This document shows positions 18,573 through 38,134 of a stretch of 64,000 nucleotides of DNA, in pieces. How positions within the stretch are numbered: the first letter of the stretch is position 1; each line of letters starts with the position of its first letter. Under the pieces are notes generated by a model, which had not been told where the DNA came from, searched no databases, and saw only the letters and a list, made by a program, of their open reading frames with translations. A program made the translations under genes and the position numbers. Origin of the DNA: Escherichia phage phiWec172; the sequence record LC739530.1; one strand, 5' to 3'.

Positions 18573-19520
18573 TTACATAGAGACTCTATCACGAATCTCA
18601 GCGATTTTTGCATCGTTCATTCGGGATTCACCTTTAATCTTAGTCCATCCAAGATACCCACACACCCTGTTAATCACAGAGATATCATGTGAATGGCAAA
18701 CCTCACATTCTTCAACATCAGCCTTTGGTCTGTTACCACAATGTTCACAGATTGCTAAGTCAAAGTTAAGCCCCTGATAAAAACCTTTCAACATCCCTCT
18801 GGTAATACAACTTTTAAGTGCTGTTAAGTTTTCTGGGTTAGCTACCCTGACATACTGGATTCTCCCACCTCTACAGATATGGAAGAATGGCTCTTCTAAG
18901 TCCTGCTTCTCAAATGGTGATATGTCTGCTGCAACATTCATATGGAAACTGTTTGTAAAGTATTCCTTATCAGAAACACCTTTGATAACGCCAAACATAT
19001 CTCTGAACTGTTTTAGCTGAGTTCCGCAAAGTGATTCTGCTGGAGTACCATAGACGGCATATAAGAAGCCGTCTTCATTTTTAAACTCTTCAGTTTTCAT
19101 GTTAATGTATGCCAGAACATCGTATGTAAAACTACAGCTTCCAACTTCATGAAGCCGTTTACCTTCAGCAAGAACAGATAGCTCATCAAGCGCAGTAACC
19201 CCAAAAGAAGCTGTGAAGGACTTCACAATATCCCAACCAACCCTGTCAGTAGGATTCTTAGTTCCTTTATACAGACCACCTTGTGTAAATGCAAGAGGGT
19301 TAGAACTTGCTGGCATATTAGCAATCATTTCGTAGCGTTTCTTGTGGAAGCTGCGAATTATTTCTAGGTACTTATCAAGCTCTTTCCAGAAATCTAAACC
19401 ATTCTCTTTAGAATACTGGTAAATCATCGGTAAGTTCAAAGATACAGCACCAATGTTTGCACGACCTACATAAAACTCTTCACCATATTCGTTATAGTAT
19501 GGTGATAAAAATGCTCTACA
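18573..19520 (-). CDS. nrdD: Anaerobic ribonucleoside-triphosphate reductase NrdD, exon 2 (glycyl-radical and zinc-ribbon region)
   Basis: Glycyl-radical motif RVCGYLG, Cys cluster CEHCG..CEVC; open frame extends upstream of track start to CRAFLSPYY... Confidence 0.65.
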   Translation of the reverse strand, partial: CRAFLSPYYNEYGEEFYVGRANIGAVSLNLPMIYQYSKENGLDFWKELDKYLEIIRSFHKKRYEMIANMPASSNPLAFTQGGLYKGTKNPTDRVGWDIVKSFTASFGVTALDELSVLAEGKRLHEVGSCSFTYDVLAYINMKTEEFKNEDGFLYAVYGTPAESLCGTQLKQFRDMFGVIKGVSDKEYFTNSFHMNVAADISPFEKQDLEEPFFHICRGGRIQYVRVANPENLTALKSCITRGMLKGFYQGLNFDLAICEHCGNRPKADVEECEVCHSHDISVINRVCGYLGWTKIKGESRMNDAKIAEIRDRVSM

Positions 19521-20262
19521 CTTGTTGTTCAGGTAAGTTCGCTAAGCTTACCCCGCTTTATTCAAGCTGCTTACTGTCGCCAGTAAGTCCAGACTATATC
19601 TTCTACTTATTTCTAAGTAGCGTACCATTTCGAGTCGCTTGACCCTACACCGCTACATTCATCACGGTTAGTCGTTCGGCATTTAGATGTATTCAAACTC
19701 ATACTCAAAGTTATTATGCTCTTTCACACCCTTCAATATTGAAGAGATGGTCTTGCGATTGTGTCCAAGTATATTGGATAACTCTCGTATTGACTTAGCA
19801 ACAATAACTTCCTTTGTCACTTTGTGTGTGGCTTTCACGGCATATGAACGCTTTTGGAACTTGTAGCATCCGTTCTCATAACCTTCTTTAGCATTCTCAG
19901 AATGAGTACCCCATTCTAAGTTAGATGCGTGGTTATTTAGTTTGTTATCGTCCTTATGTTTTACAATTGGAAGATTATTTGGGTTAGGTACATACTTCTC
20001 AGCAACTAACCTGTGGACATACATGTCACGATTCTTCTTACCGTAAAACCTCACTTTCATATACCCAGTGTTGGATTTCCACTGCGTAAGCTCTACACCA
20101 TTTTCCCTAAAGACTTTTCCATCTTCAGTGACGTGATAGTTTGGCATGTAAGACTCCTATGTTGTATAGTTTCTTACATCGTACATCATTTAGCACAGGA
20201 TTGTCTACATATGTAGAGTTTCCCTGTTTAGGCACGTTTTAGATGAGCTATAGAGCCTGTTA
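19521..20262 (-). mobile_element. Group I intron in nrdD carrying an HNH endonuclease ORF
   Basis: Exon 1 ends in U, in-frame TAA right after; P-like AACAGGGAAAC, Q-like AAUCCUGUGC, R-like UCAAGCGACUCG, S-like AGAUAUAGUCUGG; terminal G before exon 2. Confidence 0.6.
19683..20147 (-). CDS. HNH homing endonuclease (intron-encoded)
   Basis: HKDDNKLNNHASNLEWGTHSEN HNH motif; lies inside the nrdD intron. Confidence 0.65.
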   Translation of the reverse strand: MPNYHVTEDGKVFRENGVELTQWKSNTGYMKVRFYGKKNRDMYVHRLVAEKYVPNPNNLPIVKHKDDNKLNNHASNLEWGTHSENAKEGYENGCYKFQKRSYAVKATHKVTKEVIVAKSIRELSNILGHNRKTISSILKGVKEHNNFEYEFEYI

Positions 20263-21459
20263 ACCCATCGGCGAAATAACCTTGCCAGAACGCTCAAAAG
20301 CCTCTGCTACAGCCCCATGACCAGACACACTTAAGAAATCTGGATACATTGCTTTAGAGCAACACTCAATAGCTTTACTGTACAGGTGGCATTGACAGAT
20401 ATTCTCATTATGTCTCTTCTGGTCATAAATATAAACCAGTTTAGGGAATACAACAGGTTTCTTGCTCTTACCTTGTCCATTCATACGAACATCTAGGAGA
20501 GTACTTGCAATCATATATTGCAGTCGGTTATCTTCATTGGACATATCTGAATCAAGTAACCCGAATGTCAAAGTTGTAAATGCAAAATCCCCACGACTAC
20601 AAGGTACAGTGTTTAGTTTCATTTCAAGTGACTGGAAACCTTGAGTCAGTTCAATCTGTAGCTGCTCCATGACATAATTGTGGTAATGCTCTTTAGGAAT
20701 ACCATAAGATGCTGCTTTCTCAGCATGATAGCGTAGAGACTTCTTAGCATACGGTACAAGTACCTTATCAATCTCTGCTAAAGTAAAACCACCAAATTGC
20801 TGTGCAGTTGCTGAAAGAACTATGTCACCAATAACCTGTAAGGCCGACAGCACAGACTTTGGTTCACAGTATTCAATGCCAGACATTTCAAAGCCACCTT
20901 TCAGTACTTTACCGATGTCAAACAGACAACAGTTGATACCACCAAAAATTAGGTCTCTTAAGTCATGGATGTAGATAAACCCTTTTTCAATGGCTTCAAG
21001 TTCCTCTGGTGTTAAGTGGTACTGCTTAAAGATTTCTTTAGTCAGATAACCACGAATAATTGAACCTTTTGTAGAAATTAAACTGCTGTCAAAGTTAGCA
21101 TTCTCTCTGTCGCCTAAGAAGAGTGTATCTTTGGTCTTCTGGTAGAGTTCATCCCAATTTTGAGCAACTTCTTTACGGTAATTTCTATATGTTGAGTAAG
21201 ACTCATAAATCTCGTGATTGACTTCTGCCAAAGCACCCTCAACAATACTGTGAATATCATTTACAGAAATCAGCAAATTATTCTGCTTAGTGGACTTTAC
21301 CAGAATCCTCATAAATGCTGACTCAAGAGCTTGGGTAACATCTGGTGGGAGTTCTTTATATCCAACCCTGTTAGCTGACTTAGTTACTGCTGCTAAAACT
21401 TTTTTGATATCAGGTTCTTCAAGTGAGCCATTCTTTTTAATAATCTGTACTTTGTTCAT
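20263..21459 (-). CDS. nrdD: Anaerobic ribonucleoside-triphosphate reductase NrdD, exon 1 (ATP-cone and N-terminal core)
   Basis: ATP-cone-like N-terminus VQIIKKNGSLEEPDIKKV; ends ...GKVISPMG at 5-prime splice site. Confidence 0.65.
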
Positions 21460-34396: not shown

Positions 34397-34654
34397 GTAA
34401 GCCTCTTTTAAGTAGCTATTAAGTTTTAATCTTTTATCTTAACGTATTCTATACGTTATACTTTAAAGCTTTTTAAAAGCTATTAAATAATCTTTTAAGA
34501 GTTTTAAAGTATCTGTATAGTTAAACTGTTAAGTAACCTTTTAAGTAAAAACCCACTTCGCAAAGATTAACACCTTGTCAAGTACATTGTCAACTTGCTT
34601 TTTATAATTTTTTGCAGTAATGTATGAAGTTAACGGTTTTAGAGGGAGTAAAAA
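34397..34654. promoter_or_regulatory. AT-rich divergent control region (strand switch) with perfect TATAAT and strong RBS for DNA polymerase
   Basis: TATAAT at about 34603-34608 on plus strand; GGGAG SD 8 nt before ATG at 34655; genes diverge from this region. Confidence 0.4.
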
Positions 34655-36797
34655 ATGGAAAACGTAGATTTTAAGAACTTACATTTGGTTGGTGATACAG
34701 AAACTGATGGTTTACTCCTTGAGTTCACTAAAGTGCACGTAATGGCTTTCGCAGACTATAAATCTGACGATGAAGAGCCACCTGTATGGGTCTTTACAGA
34801 TGAGCCTATCCTCGGTCACAAGTATACCAAGTACATTAAGGGTGGTTTACGTGAAGGTGTTGAATTTGCGTTAAAGGCAAAACGTCTTTGCATCCATAAC
34901 GGTCTCGGTTATGACTGGTGGGTCTTCAATCACATTGCACCTGATTTATGGAACTTTGATAATCCAAAATGTAAGCCGTGGAGTAATTTCTTTCAGGATT
35001 CTCTTATCCAGTCTCGTGTTCAGTGGATGGATAGACCAACTCCAAAGGGTTATAAAGGTGCTCATGGTTTGGCTGCATGGGGTGCTCGTGTTGGTGTTCG
35101 TAAGCCAGAGATTGAACATTGGGGTGTGTGGAATGCAGAAATCTTCACTCGTGTTGTAGAAGATATCCGTATTAACGCCAAAACTAAACGGGCACTTGAT
35201 AACGAGTATCTCAAGCTTAAGAAGTGTGGTATAGACACTTATGAAACTTACATGCGAGCTAAAGAAACATCTTTCTGGATGAGTCAACAAGCTATCAATG
35301 GTTGGAAAGCTGATAAAGAGCTTATGGAGTTCCATGTAAAGGAACTTGACAAGTTGACTAATGAGCTTGCTTCAGAGGTTGAACCACATCTACCTCCAAC
35401 TATTAAGACCAAAGGTAAAGTGACTGGAGAAGAGTTTGCAAAAGCTTGGAATGAGTATGTTGAAACATTTGGTCATGCAGATGGACTGAAAAGAATTACC
35501 AAGTACCCTAAAACAAAGTATCGTCAGCAGGTGCGTAACGGTGAGATGCAGACATACGAAATCAAGCCATTTGGTAAGCCAACTACAAAGATTTTTAACA
35601 TTGAAAAAAGAAATTGCTATACACCAACCAACTCTGTAACTGGTGAAGAGTACAAGGAAGGTTTTGTAGCAATGAAGGATGCTCGTGCAATTTGCAATGA
35701 GTTGAATGCAAAGATTGGTAAGAAGTGCAAAGACTGGAAGCCAGTAAAAACAGTCAAAACTGTGAAGTACTATAACAGCCACGTTGTTAACCACTTTGAA
35801 CTTGAGTCAAGTCGCTACACAGGTTTGATTGATGCACCATATACACCAATTGAGTTCGAAGTTTCTCGCATGACTCAGGTAGCAGTTGTTAAAGACTACT
35901 TGAAATCAGTTGGTTGGATTCCAGATGACTGGAACTACAAGAAAGACTCAGACGGTCGCCCTGTCAAAGTTTGTCGTTTCAAAGACAATAAAAAGATGAT
36001 TACAAAGCATCCTAAGTGGCAGGAAATGGTTGAGCGGTGTGGTTTGAGCTATGTTGAGCATGAAGGTGTACAGTACATTGAGCATAACTGGTCTGTGAAG
36101 AAATACACAGATTTGCTTGAGCCTTGCTTAATCCGTACTTCACCAAAACTTACTGAGTCATCTTATGATACGATTGAAGGTGAGCTTGGACAGAAGATTG
36201 CTAAGTACTATACTTTGATGCACCGACGCAGAACTATTGAGAACTCAAAGGATGATGAAAAAGGTTGGTTGAACCAGATTCGTCCTGATGGTCGCCTTAG
36301 TGCTGGTGCAATGGTGTTTGGCACTTCAACTGGACGTATGACACAATATGGTATTGTAAACGTACCATCTGGTGCTGCTGTCTATGGAGCGCCTATGAGG
36401 GAGGTGTGGATTTGTGAGGAAGGGACTAATATCGTTTCAGTTGACCAGAACTCTGCACAGCTTGTTTTACTGTGTAACTTTATGGGTGATAAAGACTTCA
36501 CCAAAGCGGTAACTGAAGGTAAAGAGTTTGTAGAGTTCACTAAACAGGATGATGGACGATACTACTGCAAGCATCTTGATAAGTACCTAAATCCAGAGGC
36601 TGATAAATATTGTCGTTACGATGCTGATAATGATTTGTATGAAGTCTACACAGGTACTGATGCGCATACACTTAACAGTATTTACTTTGGTCTGAACAAG
36701 GAAGAAGATATTGTTCGTTGTAGGGAGACACAGGATGAGGAACTTCTTCATGAGATTACAAAAGGTCGTAAGAAGAGCAAAAATGGCATTTATGCGT
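34655..36797 (+). CDS. DNA polymerase (family A), exon 1: 3-prime-5-prime exonuclease and N-terminal polymerase region up to motif B
   Basis: Exo motif GDTETDG; ends ...KKSKNGIYA within motif B; track ORF runs to stop at 36838 inside the intron. Confidence 0.7.
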
Positions 36798-37065
36798 CAG
36801 TGGCGCATGTAAAACGTTGTGAATTGCTGGAAGCCTAAGTCTGTAAAGATATGGTAATCAGCAGCGAAGCCTCTTAAGAGGAACGTTCAGAGACTATCGA
36901 AAAGCATACTTAACGTATGAACTGAGTAGAGTAGGGTGGTAAGCTAATGACCATCCCCAAGTGCAACGGTAGTATTACTACTACGTGATATAGTCCGACA
37001 CTCCGTAGAAATGCGGAGAAGTTCATAAGAGAACTGGTACACCTTGCGAGTGTATTGACCAGATG
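36798..37065 (+). ncRNA. ORF-less group I intron (about 268 nt) interrupting DNA polymerase motif B
   Basis: P1: exon AUGCGU pairs with intron GCGCAU (U.G at splice site); P AAUUGCUGGAAG, Q AAUCAGCAGC, R GUUCAGAGACUA, S GAUAUAGUCC; terminal G; splice restores ...GIYALLFGAGDEK... Confidence 0.75.
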
Positions 37066-37622
37066 TATTGTTCGGGGCTGGAGACGAGAAGTTTGCAAAA
37101 ACTATCAAGGCATCATCTACGGAAGAAGGTGCATTGACTAAACAAACTTACTATATGCGTCTGCCAAAGATTAAGAAGTTACTTGATAGCTTAGAAGCCG
37201 ATTTTAAGGCGTCTAAAAAGGCTCTGGAAGAGGTTTTTGGGAAGAATTCTTCAATTGCTAAAGGTGGTTATATCAGGGTCGCTGGAGCATGGATATGGTG
37301 CAAATCTCCACATAAACTACTGAACTACCTCCTGATGAGTTCGGAAGCACAGATTCAGAATGAGGCCATCAACCTTGCAGCAAGAAAAGCCTGTGAAGAT
37401 GGCCTGACAAAACTGAATGCTCGAAAACCAGCTATCGGAGCAAGGTTGCTTCTGGCATATCACGATGAAAATAGTTGGGAATGTCCAGAGGGTATGACAC
37501 AGGATATGAAAGCAATTGCTGACTGGATGTATGGACAAGCTTCAAAAAACTTAGGTTTGAGGAAAGAAACACTTGTAACTGGTACAGCAAAGGTTGGTAA
37601 GTCGTGGTATGAGGTACATTGA
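37066..37622 (+). CDS. DNA polymerase (family A), exon 2: motif B C-terminal half and motif C
   Basis: FGAGDEK(F) matches T7 YGAGDEK; motif C LLLAYHDENSWE. Confidence 0.7.
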
Positions 37623-38134
37623 TGAGAGATTGTGGATTCACACATGAACAGTTAAAATCTTGGTTAGATTATGACCCCGAAACAGGGGTCTTAACATGGA
37701 TTGGTAGACCTCCACACAGTAGTAGGGTGGTTATTGGAAGCCAAGCCGGAGCAATTAAGCGCACAAGGTCTGGTGTGTATATGCACACACAGATTTTAGG
37801 ATACAGGACAGGCAATCACCGAATTGCTTGGTTCTGGATGACAGGCAAGTGGCCTGATAAGCAAATTGACCACAAAGATGGAGATGGTTTGAATAACGCT
37901 TGGGACAATCTAAGAGAGGCCACAAAAGAACAGAACATGTCTAATAGGAGACAACCTAGAACATCAAAAAACTTAAAAGGTACAAGTAGAAGTAAGTCTG
38001 GTAAGTGGAAAGCCCAGATTAACCATAATGGCAAGACTATACATATAGGGACATACACAACAGAAGAAGAAGCCCATAAAGCTTACTGTGAAGCTGCTAT
38101 TAAACTCCACGGAGAGTTTGCAAAACTAAGTTGA
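37619..38134 (+). CDS. HNH homing endonuclease with AP2 domain (free-standing, abutting polymerase exon 2)
   Basis: IDHKDGDGLNNAWDNLREATKEQN (HNH); GKWKAQINHNGKTIHIGTYTTEEEAHKAY (AP2); start overlaps polymerase stop (TGATG). Confidence 0.7.
   Translation: MMRDCGFTHEQLKSWLDYDPETGVLTWIGRPPHSSRVVIGSQAGAIKRTRSGVYMHTQILGYRTGNHRIAWFWMTGKWPDKQIDHKDGDGLNNAWDNLREATKEQNMSNRRQPRTSKNLKGTSRSKSGKWKAQINHNGKTIHIGTYTTEEEAHKAYCEAAIKLHGEFAKLS

What the first reader, a model, noticed from the sequence alone, without database searches (positions are those of the whole stretch)
36798..37065. ORF-less group I intron splitting the DNA polymerase gene inside motif B
The family-A polymerase reading frame stops at 36838 and resumes at 37068, breaking the conserved motif B. 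The gap carries the hallmarks of a group I intron: exon ends in U and pairs with an internal guide sequence (AUGCGU / GCGCAU), P/Q/R/S-like elements (AAUUGCUGGAAG, AAUCAGCAGC, GUUCAGAGACUA, GAUAUAGUCC), and a terminal G. Splicing at these sites would restore ...KNGIYALLFGAGDEKF..., matching the T7-type motif B spacing. The intron contains no endonuclease ORF.
Basis: partly seen in the sequence, partly recalled or inferred. Interest (0 to 1): 0.8.

Follow-up and report, generated by a model that had tools for sequence, protein, structure and literature searches.

The report
Group I intron in phage polymerase
The 268-base gap in this Felix O1-like phage's DNA polymerase gene is a genuine self-splicing group I intron with no endonuclease gene, but the same intron has already been noted in a sister phage and belongs to a textbook class.

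Summary
The observation and the interpretation both hold. The window is Escherichia phage phiWec174, a Felixounavirus. Its family-A DNA polymerase gene is interrupted at 36798-37065 (268 nt) by a group I intron.

- **RNA model:** Rfam RF00028 scores 63.8 bits against a threshold of 50 (E 7e-14).
- **Boundaries:** intron-less relatives lack exactly these 268 nt.
- **Protein:** only the spliced product passes Pfam's DNA_pol_A threshold, and the match runs straight across motif B.
- **Structure:** P1, P3-P10, P7.1/P7.2 and the terminal G can all be drawn (subgroup IA2, no P2). They hold in 100% of cells across 11 variants, with two compensatory pairs.
- **No ORF:** the intron contains no reading frame.

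Relatives carry the same intron in other states. Some have an Endonuclease VII-type gene in the P6a loop, one has that gene broken, and some have it deleted (311 nt). The intron stays about 97% identical between phages whose polymerase exons are only about 75% identical. It has therefore spread horizontally and recently, by homing.

Novelty is low. The phage Meda genome announcement (2019) already reports an endonuclease-free intron in the polymerase gene and annotates a joined CDS. The phiWec174 record itself calls both halves "hypothetical protein". The insertion site, about E. coli Pol I codon 764, differs from the sites listed in a 2012 paper (674, 676, 881).

The parts
34655..36797 (+). 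DNA polymerase exon 1. It ends with U36797, the first base of the split Leu codon T|TA.
   Evidence: ORF listing; junction from intron-less alleles; weak PF00476 match alone, 17.6 bits.
36798..37065 (+). Group I intron, 268 nt, subgroup IA2-like, no ORF, no P2.
   Evidence: RF00028 63.8 bits, E 7e-14; absent precisely in SP116, HY02 and FO1a; named structure 100% paired across 11 variants; no internal ORF.
37066..37622 (+). DNA polymerase exon 2, including the stop codon.
   Evidence: The spliced frame is 2700 nt and PF00476 scores 50.7 bits across the junction.
36792..36808 (+). P1 hairpin: exon AUGCGU (36792-36797) paired with the internal guide GCGCAU (36803-36808). U36797.G36803 is the wobble at the 5' splice site.
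   Evidence: Sequence; 6 of 6 pairs in 11 of 11 variants; all 14 intron-bearing loci have TATGCGT at the junction.
36798..36802 (+). P10, 5' strand: CAGUG pairs with the first five exon-2 bases UAUUG (37066-37070).
   Evidence: 5 of 5 pairs, 2 of them G.U. UAUUG is present in all intron-bearing alleles and in no intron-less allele.
36815..36821 (+). P3, 5' strand: CGUUGUG pairs with 36962-36968 (UGCAACG).
36825..36886 (+). P4-P6 domain. P4 is 36825-30/36858-63. P5 is 36834-35/36853-54. P5a is 36839-42/36847-50 with a GUAA loop. P6 is 36864-66/36884-86. P6a is 36870-73/36878-81 with a UUAA loop; this loop is where relatives carry the endonuclease gene.
   Evidence: The P6a base pair covaries (U-A in 6, C-G in 5). 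The ORF insertion point lies between intron nt 77 and 80.
36836..36838 (+). In-frame UAA that ends exon-1 translation on unspliced RNA, 13 codons into the intron.
36890..36897 (+). P7, 5' strand: G36890, bulged A36891, GACUAU 36892-97. It pairs with 36990-36996 (AUAGUCC), forming the pseudoknot with P3 and the presumed guanosine-binding helix.
   Evidence: The R and S elements are conserved in RF00028.
36905..36919 (+). P7.1 hairpin (CAUAC / GUAUG).
   Evidence: The crAss-like cr3_1 intron has a different but complementary stem (CAACAU/AUGUUG) between the same flanks.
36934..36957 (+). P7.2 hairpin (GGGUGGU / ACCA-U-CCC).
   Evidence: One pair varies G-C to G-U.
36969..36984 (+). P8 hairpin (GUAGUA / UACUAC).
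   Evidence: A compensatory U-A to C-G change splits the variants 5 to 6.
37001..37054 (+). P9 (37001-07/37012-18, GAAA loop), P9.1 (37021-24/37031-34) and P9.2 (37038-42/37050-54).
   Evidence: In the Bas89 intron P9.1 is identical, and P9 and P9.2 differ in sequence but stay complementary.
37065..37065 (+). Terminal guanosine (omega G) at the 3' splice site.
37619..38134 (+). Free-standing HNH_3 + AP2 endonuclease gene overlapping the polymerase stop codon. It is a possible trans-mobilising partner but not demonstrably part of the element.
   Evidence: Pfam HNH_3 E 7.7e-15 and AP2 E 3.8e-9. The slot is variable or empty in relatives regardless of intron state.

Best explanation
Bases 36798-37065 are a self-splicing group I intron (subgroup IA2 architecture, no P2, no ORF). 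It interrupts the single family-A DNA polymerase gene of Escherichia phage phiWec174 inside motif B (the O-helix), two codons after the tyrosine equivalent to T7 Y526.

**Splicing.** Both exons are transcribed as one pre-mRNA. The intron folds and binds an external guanosine in P7, which attacks after U36797 (held in P1 by the guide sequence GCGCAU). The freed exon-1 3'-OH then attacks after G37065, with exon 2 aligned by P10 (CAGUG/UAUUG). This ligates GCG-U|UA-UUG and restores ...GIYALLFGAGD... in an 899-aa polymerase. Unspliced RNA gives only a truncated product, ending at the stop at 36836-38.

**Mobility.** This copy has no mobility gene of its own. It is the endonuclease-free state of an intron that, in sister phages, carries an Endonuclease VII-type homing endonuclease gene in the P6a loop and has recently spread by homing among diverged Felixounavirus polymerase alleles. 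ORF-less copies like this one most likely persist by vertical inheritance. They may also spread through trans-mobilisation during co-infection, either by the endonuclease of ORF-bearing siblings or by a neighbouring free-standing endonuclease.

**Shown versus inferred.** Shown here: the RNA family match, the exact boundaries, the conserved and covarying structure, the restored protein, and the signature of horizontal spread. Inferred: actual catalysis and the route of mobilisation.
For: 1. **RNA model.** RF00028 scores 63.8 bits against a gathering score of 50, E 7e-14, and is the sole above-threshold Rfam hit in 64 kb.
2. **Boundaries.** Intron-less relatives SP116, HY02 and FO1a lack exactly 268 nt and encode the same GIYALLFGAGD. 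Across 29 loci, 14 carry the element and 15 do not.
3. **Splice-site pairings.** All 14 intron-bearing alleles have TATGCG-T|TA-TTG, which forms P1 and P10. None of the 15 intron-less alleles has both flanks.
4. **Structure.** P1, P3-P10, P7.1 and P7.2 are 100% paired in 899 cells over 11 variants. Partners slid by 1-3 columns give only 27-48%. P6a and P8 each show a compensatory change, P7.2 shows one G-C/G-U change, and all other substitutions fall in unpaired columns. Unconstrained folding recovers P4, P5, P7.1, P7.2, P8, P9 and P9.1.
5. **Protein.** The spliced protein scores 50.7 bits for PF00476 (cut-off 34.3), with the match 703-897 crossing the junction at residue 714/715. The halves score 17.6 and 25.8. 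T7 gp5 residues 517-621 align across the junction.
6. **One transcript.** There is no promoter-like or terminator-like site in 36500-37400, and no in-frame ATG or Shine-Dalgarno sequence ahead of exon 2.
7. **Horizontal spread.** In 30 pairs with exon identity below 80% (mean 75.1%; third codon positions 51%), the intron core is 97.0% identical and its unpaired columns 97.6%. The 15 nt of exon on each side of the junction are 93% identical. Against the nearest intron-less allele, exon 2 has 5 synonymous differences in its first 15 nt and then none for about 210 nt.
8. **Other states in relatives.** Intact Endonuclease_7 ORFs (PF02945, E 2e-19) sit in the P6a loop in pEP20, VSe11 and BPS15Q2. 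The ORF is broken in VpaE1. A 311-nt form in Mushroom and warpig retains the last codons of the ORF.
9. **Independent recognition.** Phage Meda's polymerase CDS is annotated as a two-piece join, and its paper reports the intron.
Against: - There is no experimental evidence of splicing for this phage or any Felixounavirus in the searchable literature.
- The covariance model misplaces the 5' end (hit 36735-37018), so the boundaries rest on comparative inference.
- Within Felixounavirus the intron is so conserved that only 2 of 85 pairs covary. The structure was also drawn from one of the aligned sequences, which inflates the percent-paired statistic.
- P2 is absent. The GNRA loop of P5a is lost in one variant (SUT_S920).
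- The folding energy z-score is modest (-2.09).
- The mobilisation route for the ORF-less form is untested. In my sample, intron presence does not correlate with the downstream HNH gene: 8 of 11 intron-bearing loci carry one versus 10 of 16 intron-less loci.
Confidence: 0.93

Rival explanations
1. Split polymerase. The two ORFs are translated separately and assemble into an active enzyme, and the intervening RNA is only an intron relic that no longer splices.
For: Most GenBank records annotate two separate polymerase CDSs. A TTG codon opens an ORF at 37068.
Against: - The break falls inside the O-helix (motif B), and neither half reaches the Pfam threshold alone.
- There is no in-frame ATG or Shine-Dalgarno sequence before exon 2.
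- The intron core is conserved at about 97%, with substitutions confined to loops or compensatory. That indicates selection on the RNA fold.
- Every intron-bearing allele keeps the exon bases needed for P1 and P10.
Confidence: 0.03
2. The intron splices only with help from a protein cofactor (a host or phage chaperone or maturase) rather than being truly self-splicing.
For: P2 is missing and P1 is only 6 bp. The folding energy is only modestly better than shuffles (z = -2.09). No in vitro data exist.
Against: Related IA2 phage polymerase introns, including one that also lacks P2 (Pf-WMP3), self-splice in vitro (PMC3428280). All catalytic-core helices and a GNRA L9 loop are intact. There is no maturase-like ORF in or next to the intron.
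Confidence: 0.1
3. The ORF-less intron is mobilised specifically by the adjacent free-standing HNH-AP2 endonuclease (37619-38134). This would be collaborative or trans homing, as with T4 mobE/nrdB or S-PM2 F-CphI/psbA.
For: An HNH_3+AP2 gene overlaps the polymerase stop codon, only 554 nt from the intron insertion site. Meda and FO1a show a sharp rise in divergence from about 300 nt (Meda) and even earlier (FO1a) into exon 2, consistent with endonuclease-driven exchange at this slot. Published precedents exist.
Against: - The same HNH allele (96-98% aa identity) occurs with intron-less polymerase genes (SP116, L009, L019).
- Other HNH alleles, or none, occur with the intron.
- The co-converted exon patch around the intron is only about 10-15 nt. 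That points to a cut at the insertion site rather than 550 nt away.
- Sibling introns carry their own Endo VII-type endonuclease gene.
Confidence: 0.15

Closest known systems
The DNA polymerase intron of Salmonella phage Meda (MH586731; Microbiol Resour Announc 2019, PMC6486253)
   Same: It is the same element: 98.5% identical, 268 nt, same insertion point, no ORF. The Meda CDS is annotated as a join and the paper states that the intron lacks an HNH gene.
   Different: The Meda paper gives one sentence, with no intron class, structure, splice-site logic or population context. The phiWec174 record leaves both halves as 'hypothetical protein'.
Subgroup IA2 group I introns in phage family-A DNA polymerase genes (SPO1/SP82/Bastille, PhiI/W31, Pf-WMP3, phiL7)
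   Same: They share the IA2 architecture with P7.1/P7.2. The endonuclease ORF, when present, sits in P6a. The host gene is an essential, conserved polymerase, and the insertion lies in a functionally critical finger-domain motif. Pf-WMP3 likewise lacks P2 (PMC3428280).
   Different: - **Insertion site.** The published sites are 674, 676 and 881 in E. coli Pol I numbering. This one is at about 764, two codons after the F762/T7-Y526 equivalent. That mapping comes plus textbook O-helix numbering.
- **Endonuclease family.** The endonuclease in the ORF-bearing siblings is Endonuclease VII/DHHRN-type (PF02945), not HNH.
- **This copy.** It has no ORF.
Polymerase intron of Escherichia phage KarlSchell_Bas89 (PQ850613)
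   Same: It has a homologous core: the P4/P6 strands, R/S elements and P9.1 are identical, and P3, P9 and P9.2 are complementary with different sequences. An ORF sits in P6a. It lies in the same motif B of a family-A polymerase and is annotated as a joined CDS.
   Different: By my reading it is inserted two codons further downstream (IYAFN-Y|GAGD). It has a P2 hairpin and carries an endonuclease ORF. The host phage is an unrelated podovirus.
T4 nrdB intron with defunct I-TevIII, mobilised by mobE (trans homing); S-PM2 psbA intron with F-CphI (collaborative homing)
   Same: In both, a group I intron without a working endonuclease gene lies near a free-standing endonuclease gene in the same phage. 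The window has an HNH-AP2 gene abutting the polymerase gene.
   Different: No cleavage data exist here, and there is no co-occurrence of intron and HNH gene across relatives. Membership of either pathway is therefore unproven.

Membership tests
Group I intron (Rfam RF00028) | Covariance-model score at or above the curated gathering score | tested here: met
   63.8 bits against 50, E 7.4e-14, full model 1-253.
Group I intron (Rfam RF00028) | The 5' exon ends in U, which forms a U.G wobble with the internal guide sequence in P1 | tested here: met
   U36797.G36803. P1 AUGCGU/GCGCAU has 6 of 6 pairs in 11 of 11 variants.
Group I intron (Rfam RF00028) | Terminal guanosine at the 3' splice site, and P10 pairing with the 3' exon | tested here: met
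   G37065. CAGUG (36798-802) pairs with UAUUG (37066-70). UAUUG is found only in intron-bearing alleles.
Group I intron (Rfam RF00028) | Conserved catalytic core: P3-P8 with the P3/P7 pseudoknot and the P, Q, R, S elements | tested here: met
   All helices can be drawn and are 100% paired across the variants. P/Q/R/S align to the model consensus.
Group I intron (Rfam RF00028) | Precise excision restores the host gene; intron-less alleles exist | tested here: met
   Exactly 268 nt are absent in SP116, HY02 and FO1a. The spliced product passes PF00476 across the junction.
Group I intron (Rfam RF00028) | Guanosine-dependent self-splicing | not testable with these tools
   This needs in vitro transcription with GTP, or RT-PCR from infected cells.
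Subgroup IA2 | Extra helices P7.1 and P7.2 between P7 and P3', joined by a linker containing GUA | tested here: met
   P7.1 is 36905-19 and P7.2 is 36934-57. The 14-nt linker AACUGAGUAGAGUA contains GUA. The criterion is as stated in PMC3428280.
Subgroup IA2 | P2 helix | tested here: not met
   Only 6 nt (GUAAAA) lie between P1 and P3. The IA2 intron of Pf-WMP3 also lacks P2, so this does not exclude IA2.
Mobile (homing) group I intron | Intron-encoded homing endonuclease gene | tested here: not met
   This copy has no ORF. Sibling copies carry an Endonuclease_7 ORF in P6a.
Mobile (homing) group I intron | Phylogenetic signature of horizontal spread with co-conversion of flanking exon | tested here: met
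   The intron is 97% identical where exons are 75% identical (third codon positions 51%). The 15 nt of exon on each side are 93% identical. A 15-nt synonymous patch appears against the nearest intron-less allele.
Mobile (homing) group I intron | The endonuclease cleaves the intron-less allele at or near the insertion site | not testable with these tools
   This requires a cleavage assay with the pEP20-type Endo VII-like protein.
Collaborative / trans homing (F-CphI-psbA, MobE-nrdB type) | A free-standing endonuclease gene close to an ORF-less intron | tested here: met
   The HNH_3+AP2 gene at 37619-38134 lies 554 nt from the insertion site.
Collaborative / trans homing (F-CphI-psbA, MobE-nrdB type) | Co-inheritance of the intron and the free-standing endonuclease gene | tested here: not met
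   An HNH gene is present in 8 of 11 intron-bearing loci and 10 of 16 intron-less loci. The same allele occurs with and without the intron.
Family A DNA polymerase (PF00476), motif B | A contiguous R..K...Y.....G O-helix motif in the mature protein | tested here: met
   GRKKSKNGIYALLFGAGD is read only after splicing. PF00476 scores 50.7 bits across it, and T7 gp5 residues 517-621 align across it.

The most novel reading that the evidence does not exclude
The Felixounavirus polymerase intron may define a previously uncatalogued insertion site for IA2 introns in family-A polymerases, in the O-helix at about E. coli Pol I codon 764. A related intron sits two codons away in the unrelated phage Bas89.

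The roughly 100 sequenced carriers may also capture a complete, ongoing homing cycle: empty site, intron with an intact Endo VII/DHHRN-type endonuclease gene, broken gene, deleted gene, and minimal 268-nt intron.

In that reading, endonuclease-free copies such as this one are actively propagated in trans during co-infection, by sibling-intron endonucleases or by the abutting HNH-AP2 gene. That would make this abundant, easily cultured phage group a natural experimental system for intron population dynamics.
Probability: 0.35. Interest if true: 0.4.

Novelty: already known. Interest (0 to 1): 0.22.

Why it matters
**Annotation.** The phiWec174 record, and most of the roughly 96 related GenBank records that carry the element, split one essential polymerase gene into two "genes" or "hypothetical proteins". 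They should carry a joined CDS and an intron feature.

**Biology.** The finding adds nothing new in kind. Self-splicing IA2 introns in phage polymerase genes have been known since SPO1 (1990), and this exact intron was mentioned for phage Meda in 2019.

**What is mildly useful:**
- The splice sites and full secondary structure are now defined.
- The insertion point in the O-helix differs from the three polymerase sites listed in a 2012 paper.
- Sequenced Felixounaviruses display every stage of the homing cycle, with very clear evidence of recent horizontal spread. That could serve as a convenient model for intron and endonuclease population dynamics.

Tried and rejected
- **Linkage to the downstream HNH-AP2 gene.** I looked for linkage between intron state and this gene, as collaborative homing would predict. 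Across 27 loci there is none: the same allele occurs with and without the intron, and some intron-bearing phages have no HNH gene. I kept this only as a low-confidence rival.
- **Covariation from distant homologues.** MAFFT misaligned the Bas89 intron through P7.1-P8, so the formal pair count used Felixounavirus variants only. Bas89 and cr3_1 were compared by eye.
- **Custom covariance model.** I did not build one. At 268-328 columns the calibration would exceed the tool's time limit.
- **IMG/VR scan.** It returned only 16 loci, too few for population statistics. GenBank loci fetched one at a time filled the gap.
- **Literature.** Searches for 'Felix O1/Felixounavirus + intron' found no structural or experimental description. 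The Felix O1 genome paper says introns are absent, which is true for Felix O1/FO1a itself.
- **Separate exon-2 expression.** I checked whether exon 2 could be expressed on its own. There is no promoter, terminator, in-frame ATG or Shine-Dalgarno sequence.
- **crAss-like cr3_1 polymerase intron.** It shares core sequence but lies in a different polymerase context, so it is not the same insertion site.
Full report
**Source.** The window is Escherichia phage phiWec174 (LC739531.1; Felixounavirus, the Felix O1 group). It is 100% identical, and window coordinate equals record coordinate plus 1. That record annotates the two polymerase pieces (34654-36837 and 37067-37621 in record coordinates) as "hypothetical protein" and has no intron feature.

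- A 727-codon ORF (34655-36838) ends at a TAA, and an ORF resumes at 37068-37622.
- An Rfam 15 scan of the whole window gives one above-threshold hit. RF00028 (group I catalytic intron) matches 36735-37018 on the + strand at 63.8 bits (gathering score 50), E 7.4e-14.
- The model misplaces the 5' end, starting 63 nt inside exon 1, and it stops before the peripheral 3' helices. It establishes the family but not the boundaries.

**Boundaries.**
- BLAST against about 50,700 phage genomes finds 176 records matching the flanking polymerase sequence. In 96 of the records matching the intron query, at least 80% of the intron is covered.
- Several close relatives span exactly 833 bp for my 1101-bp query, which is 268 bp less.
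- Aligning phiWec174 with SP116, HY02 and FO1a shows that 36798-37065 is precisely absent. The intron-less genes read GGC ATC TAC GCC CTG TTA TTT GGA GCC, or G I Y A L L F G A.
- Joining 36797 to 37066 gives GGC ATT TAT GCG T|TA TTG TTC GGG GCT, which is the same peptide. The frame is 2700 nt and 899 codons.
- The requirement for U before the 5' splice site and G as the last intron base makes this register unique.

**Protein-level test.**
- The exon-1 and exon-2 products alone score 17.6 and 25.8 bits against PF00476 (DNA_pol_A, cut-off 34.3).
- The spliced product scores 50.7 bits. Its best stretch, 703-897, crosses the junction at residue 714/715.
- T7 DNA polymerase residues 517-621 align to the stretch that contains the junction.
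- Using textbook O-helix numbering (my knowledge), T7 R518/K522/Y526 correspond to E. coli Pol I R754/K758/F762. On that basis R705, K709 and Y713 of the phage enzyme are the motif B residues.
- The intron splits the Leu715 codon in phase 1. That codon corresponds to T7 F528 and to about E. coli 764.
- A 2012 paper lists phage family-A polymerase intron sites at 674, 676 and 881 (PMC3428280). This is a different site.

**Secondary structure** (intron numbering; add 36797 for window coordinates).

| Element | Positions | Notes |
|---|---|---|
| P1 | exon -6..-1 / 6-11 | U.G wobble at the splice site |
| P10 | 1-5 / exon 2 +1..+5 | |
| P3 | 18-24 / 165-171 | |
| P4 | 28-33 / 61-66 | |
| P5 | 37-38 / 56-57 | |
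| P5a | 42-45 / 50-53 | GUAA loop |
| P6 | 67-69 / 87-89 | |
| P6a | 73-76 / 81-84 | UUAA loop |
| P7 | 93, 95-100 / 193-199 | bulged A94 |
| P7.1 | 108-112 / 118-122 | |
| P7.2 | 137-143 / 153-160 | |
| P8 | 172-177 / 182-187 | |
| P9 | 204-210 / 215-221 | GAAA loop |
| P9.1 | 224-227 / 234-237 | |
| P9.2 | 241-245 / 253-257 | |
| omega G | 268 | |

- There is no P2.
- P7.1 and P7.2, together with the P6a location of the ORF in relatives, place it in subgroup IA2. The Pf-WMP3 polymerase intron is also IA2 and also lacks P2.
- On an alignment of 11 Felixounavirus variants, the structure is paired in 100% of 899 cells. Sliding the 3' partners by 1-3 columns gives 27-48%.
- The basal P6a pair is U-A in 6 variants and C-G in 5. 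A P8 pair is U-A in 5 and C-G in 6. One P7.2 pair alternates G-C and G-U. Every other substitution lies in an unpaired column.
- The P5a loop is GUAA, GGAA or GAGA (all GNRA) in 10 of the 11 variants.
- Caveat: the structure was drawn from one of these sequences, and the set is closely related. The percent-paired figure is therefore weak evidence, and the compensatory pairs and loop-restricted variation are the informative part.
- Unconstrained folding independently recovers P4, P5/P5a, P7.1, P7.2, P8, P9 and P9.1 (z = -2.09).
- More distant homologues add covariation by eye. In the Bas89 polymerase intron, P9.1 is identical, while P3, P9 and P9.2 have different but complementary arms. In the crAss-like cr3_1 intron, P7.1 is CAACAU/AUGUUG between the same flanking sequences.

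**No coding capacity.** No + strand ORF of 20 aa or more lies inside the intron. The two antisense ORFs (62 and 54 aa, TTG starts) run into exon 2 and are mechanical. No promoter-like or terminator-like site lies between 36500 and 37400, and no in-frame ATG or Shine-Dalgarno sequence precedes exon 2. This fits one transcript and one spliced product rather than two polypeptides.

**The population context shows what this copy is.** Among 29 loci examined, 15 have an empty site and 14 carry the intron. The intron occurs in four states:
- **With an intact endonuclease gene.** About 800 nt, with a 160-161 aa Endonuclease_7 (PF02945, E 2e-19) ORF. The ORF is inserted between intron nt 77 and 80, in the loop of an extended P6a stem (UCUCUGUUAGGA/UCCUAACAGAGA). 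Seen in pEP20, VSe11 and BPS15Q2.
- **With the gene broken.** 780 nt, with the ORF split into two CDSs (VpaE1).
- **With the gene deleted.** 311 nt in Mushroom and warpig. The ORF is deleted between short CCTAA repeats, but its last codons, its stop and the distal stem remain.
- **The minimal 268-nt form.** Found here and in BPS17W1, Meda, REP7 and SUT_S920.

This is the classical homing cycle of invasion, endonuclease decay and endonuclease loss. The Endo VII/DHHRN family has been proposed as a homing-endonuclease family, including intron-embedded members (PMC6083498).

**Horizontal spread.**
- Across the 55 pairs of intron-bearing loci, the intron core is 94.8-100% identical.
- In the 30 pairs whose flanking exons (16-300 nt from the junction) are less than 80% identical, exon identity averages 75.1% and third codon positions 51%. 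The intron core averages 97.0% and its unpaired columns 97.6%.
- The Mushroom and VSe11 introns are 100% identical in the core, while their exons are 75% identical.
- The 15 nt of exon on either side of the junction are 93% identical across carriers.
- Against the closest intron-less allele (SP116), exon 2 shows five synonymous differences in the first 15 nt and then none for about 210 nt.
- All carriers have TATGCG-T|TA-TTG, which forms P1 and P10. No intron-less allele has both halves.
- The intron is therefore much younger than the polymerase alleles it sits in. It arrived with a very short co-converted exon patch, as expected if a nuclease cuts at the insertion site.

**The downstream endonuclease gene.** A free-standing HNH_3+AP2 gene (37619-38134) overlaps the polymerase stop codon. 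This resembles collaborative or trans homing (PMC3984707, PMC6083498, PMC2790892). However, the slot holds several unrelated alleles (100/97/49/45/39% aa identity) or nothing, irrespective of intron state. It is occupied in 8 of 11 carriers and 10 of 16 non-carriers, and the same allele sits next to intron-less polymerase genes. I therefore treat specific collaboration as unproven (about 0.15).

**Prior knowledge.**
- The Felix O1 genome paper reported no introns (PMC3185647). That is correct for Felix O1/FO1a.
- The SPJ41 paper mentions "two introns" from a non-coding RNA scan.
[quoted passage not shown] Its GenBank CDS is a two-piece join, and the Meda intron is 98.5% identical to this one.
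- I found no paper giving the intron class, structure, insertion-site mapping, splicing test or population analysis.
- The finding as stated is therefore real but already known, and it belongs to a well-known class.

**Verdict.** This is a functional, endonuclease-free IA2 group I intron in polymerase motif B (confidence 0.93). The mechanism is textbook. Splicing and mobility are inferred, not demonstrated. Interest is low to moderate, about 0.22. The value lies mainly in correcting annotation and in a tidy natural example of the homing cycle.

Noticed in passing
window 18573-21459 (- strand): There is a second split gene. The anaerobic ribonucleotide reductase nrdD is in two pieces (21459..20260, 399 aa; 19439..18573, 288 aa), separated by about 820 nt. 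That gap holds an HNH-like ORF (20147..19683, 154 aa) and a sub-threshold group I hit (RF00028, 19750..19570, 33.1 bits against a gathering score of 50, E 1.2e-4). The hit has a clear GAAGAUAUAGUCU element and a P9 hairpin. This is probably a second group I intron with its own endonuclease gene. Papers on relatives mention the split nrdD.
   Followed up: partly
window 37619-38134 (+): A free-standing HNH_3 + AP2-domain endonuclease gene overlaps the polymerase stop codon. The slot is hypervariable in relatives: at least four alleles at 39-100% aa identity, or empty. In Meda and FO1a, polymerase exon 2 becomes sharply divergent from about 300 nt (Meda), or earlier (FO1a), after the intron site. 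This suggests endonuclease-driven exchange at the 3' end of the polymerase gene.
   Followed up: partly
L002 2609-3091 (pEP20); L024, L026; L025 (VpaE1): Sibling introns encode an Endonuclease VII/DHHRN-type protein (PF02945, C-terminal catalytic domain) in the P6a loop. The ORF is disrupted in VpaE1 (780-nt intron, two CDSs). The 311-nt form in Mushroom and warpig is an ORF deletion that retains the last codons of the ORF.
   Followed up: yes
L032 2458-3237 (Escherichia phage KarlSchell_Bas89): A homologous IA2 intron, with P2 and an endonuclease ORF in P6a, interrupts the family-A polymerase of an unrelated podovirus. It sits in the same motif B, apparently two codons downstream (…FIYAFN-Y|GAGDAK…). 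My splice-site assignment there rests on reading frame and a weak 4-bp P1.
   Followed up: partly
L030 (vB_EcoP-ZQ2), L031 (crAss-like cr3_1), L033 (Vibrio phage 11895-B1): Introns with a closely related core (73-86% identity over P3-P7) interrupt an RNA polymerase gene, a crAss-like phage DNA polymerase gene and a terminase large-subunit gene. Each has a neighbouring or internal endonuclease ORF. Several are unannotated as introns.
   Followed up: no
L016, L017 (IMG/VR contigs 2706796097 and 2706796096, intron-less): These intron-less polymerase alleles already carry TATGCG-T at the insertion point, so the 5' flank is compatible with P1. They lack the UAUUG 3' flank. This could be a footprint of intron loss or simply a pre-adapted target.
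   Followed up: no
GenBank records MG065664 and MG065668 ('Campylobacter phage A132/A126'): Two records labelled as Campylobacter jejuni phages are 95.7% identical to this Felixounavirus polymerase region and carry the same intron at 99.3% identity. The host label looks doubtful.
   Followed up: no
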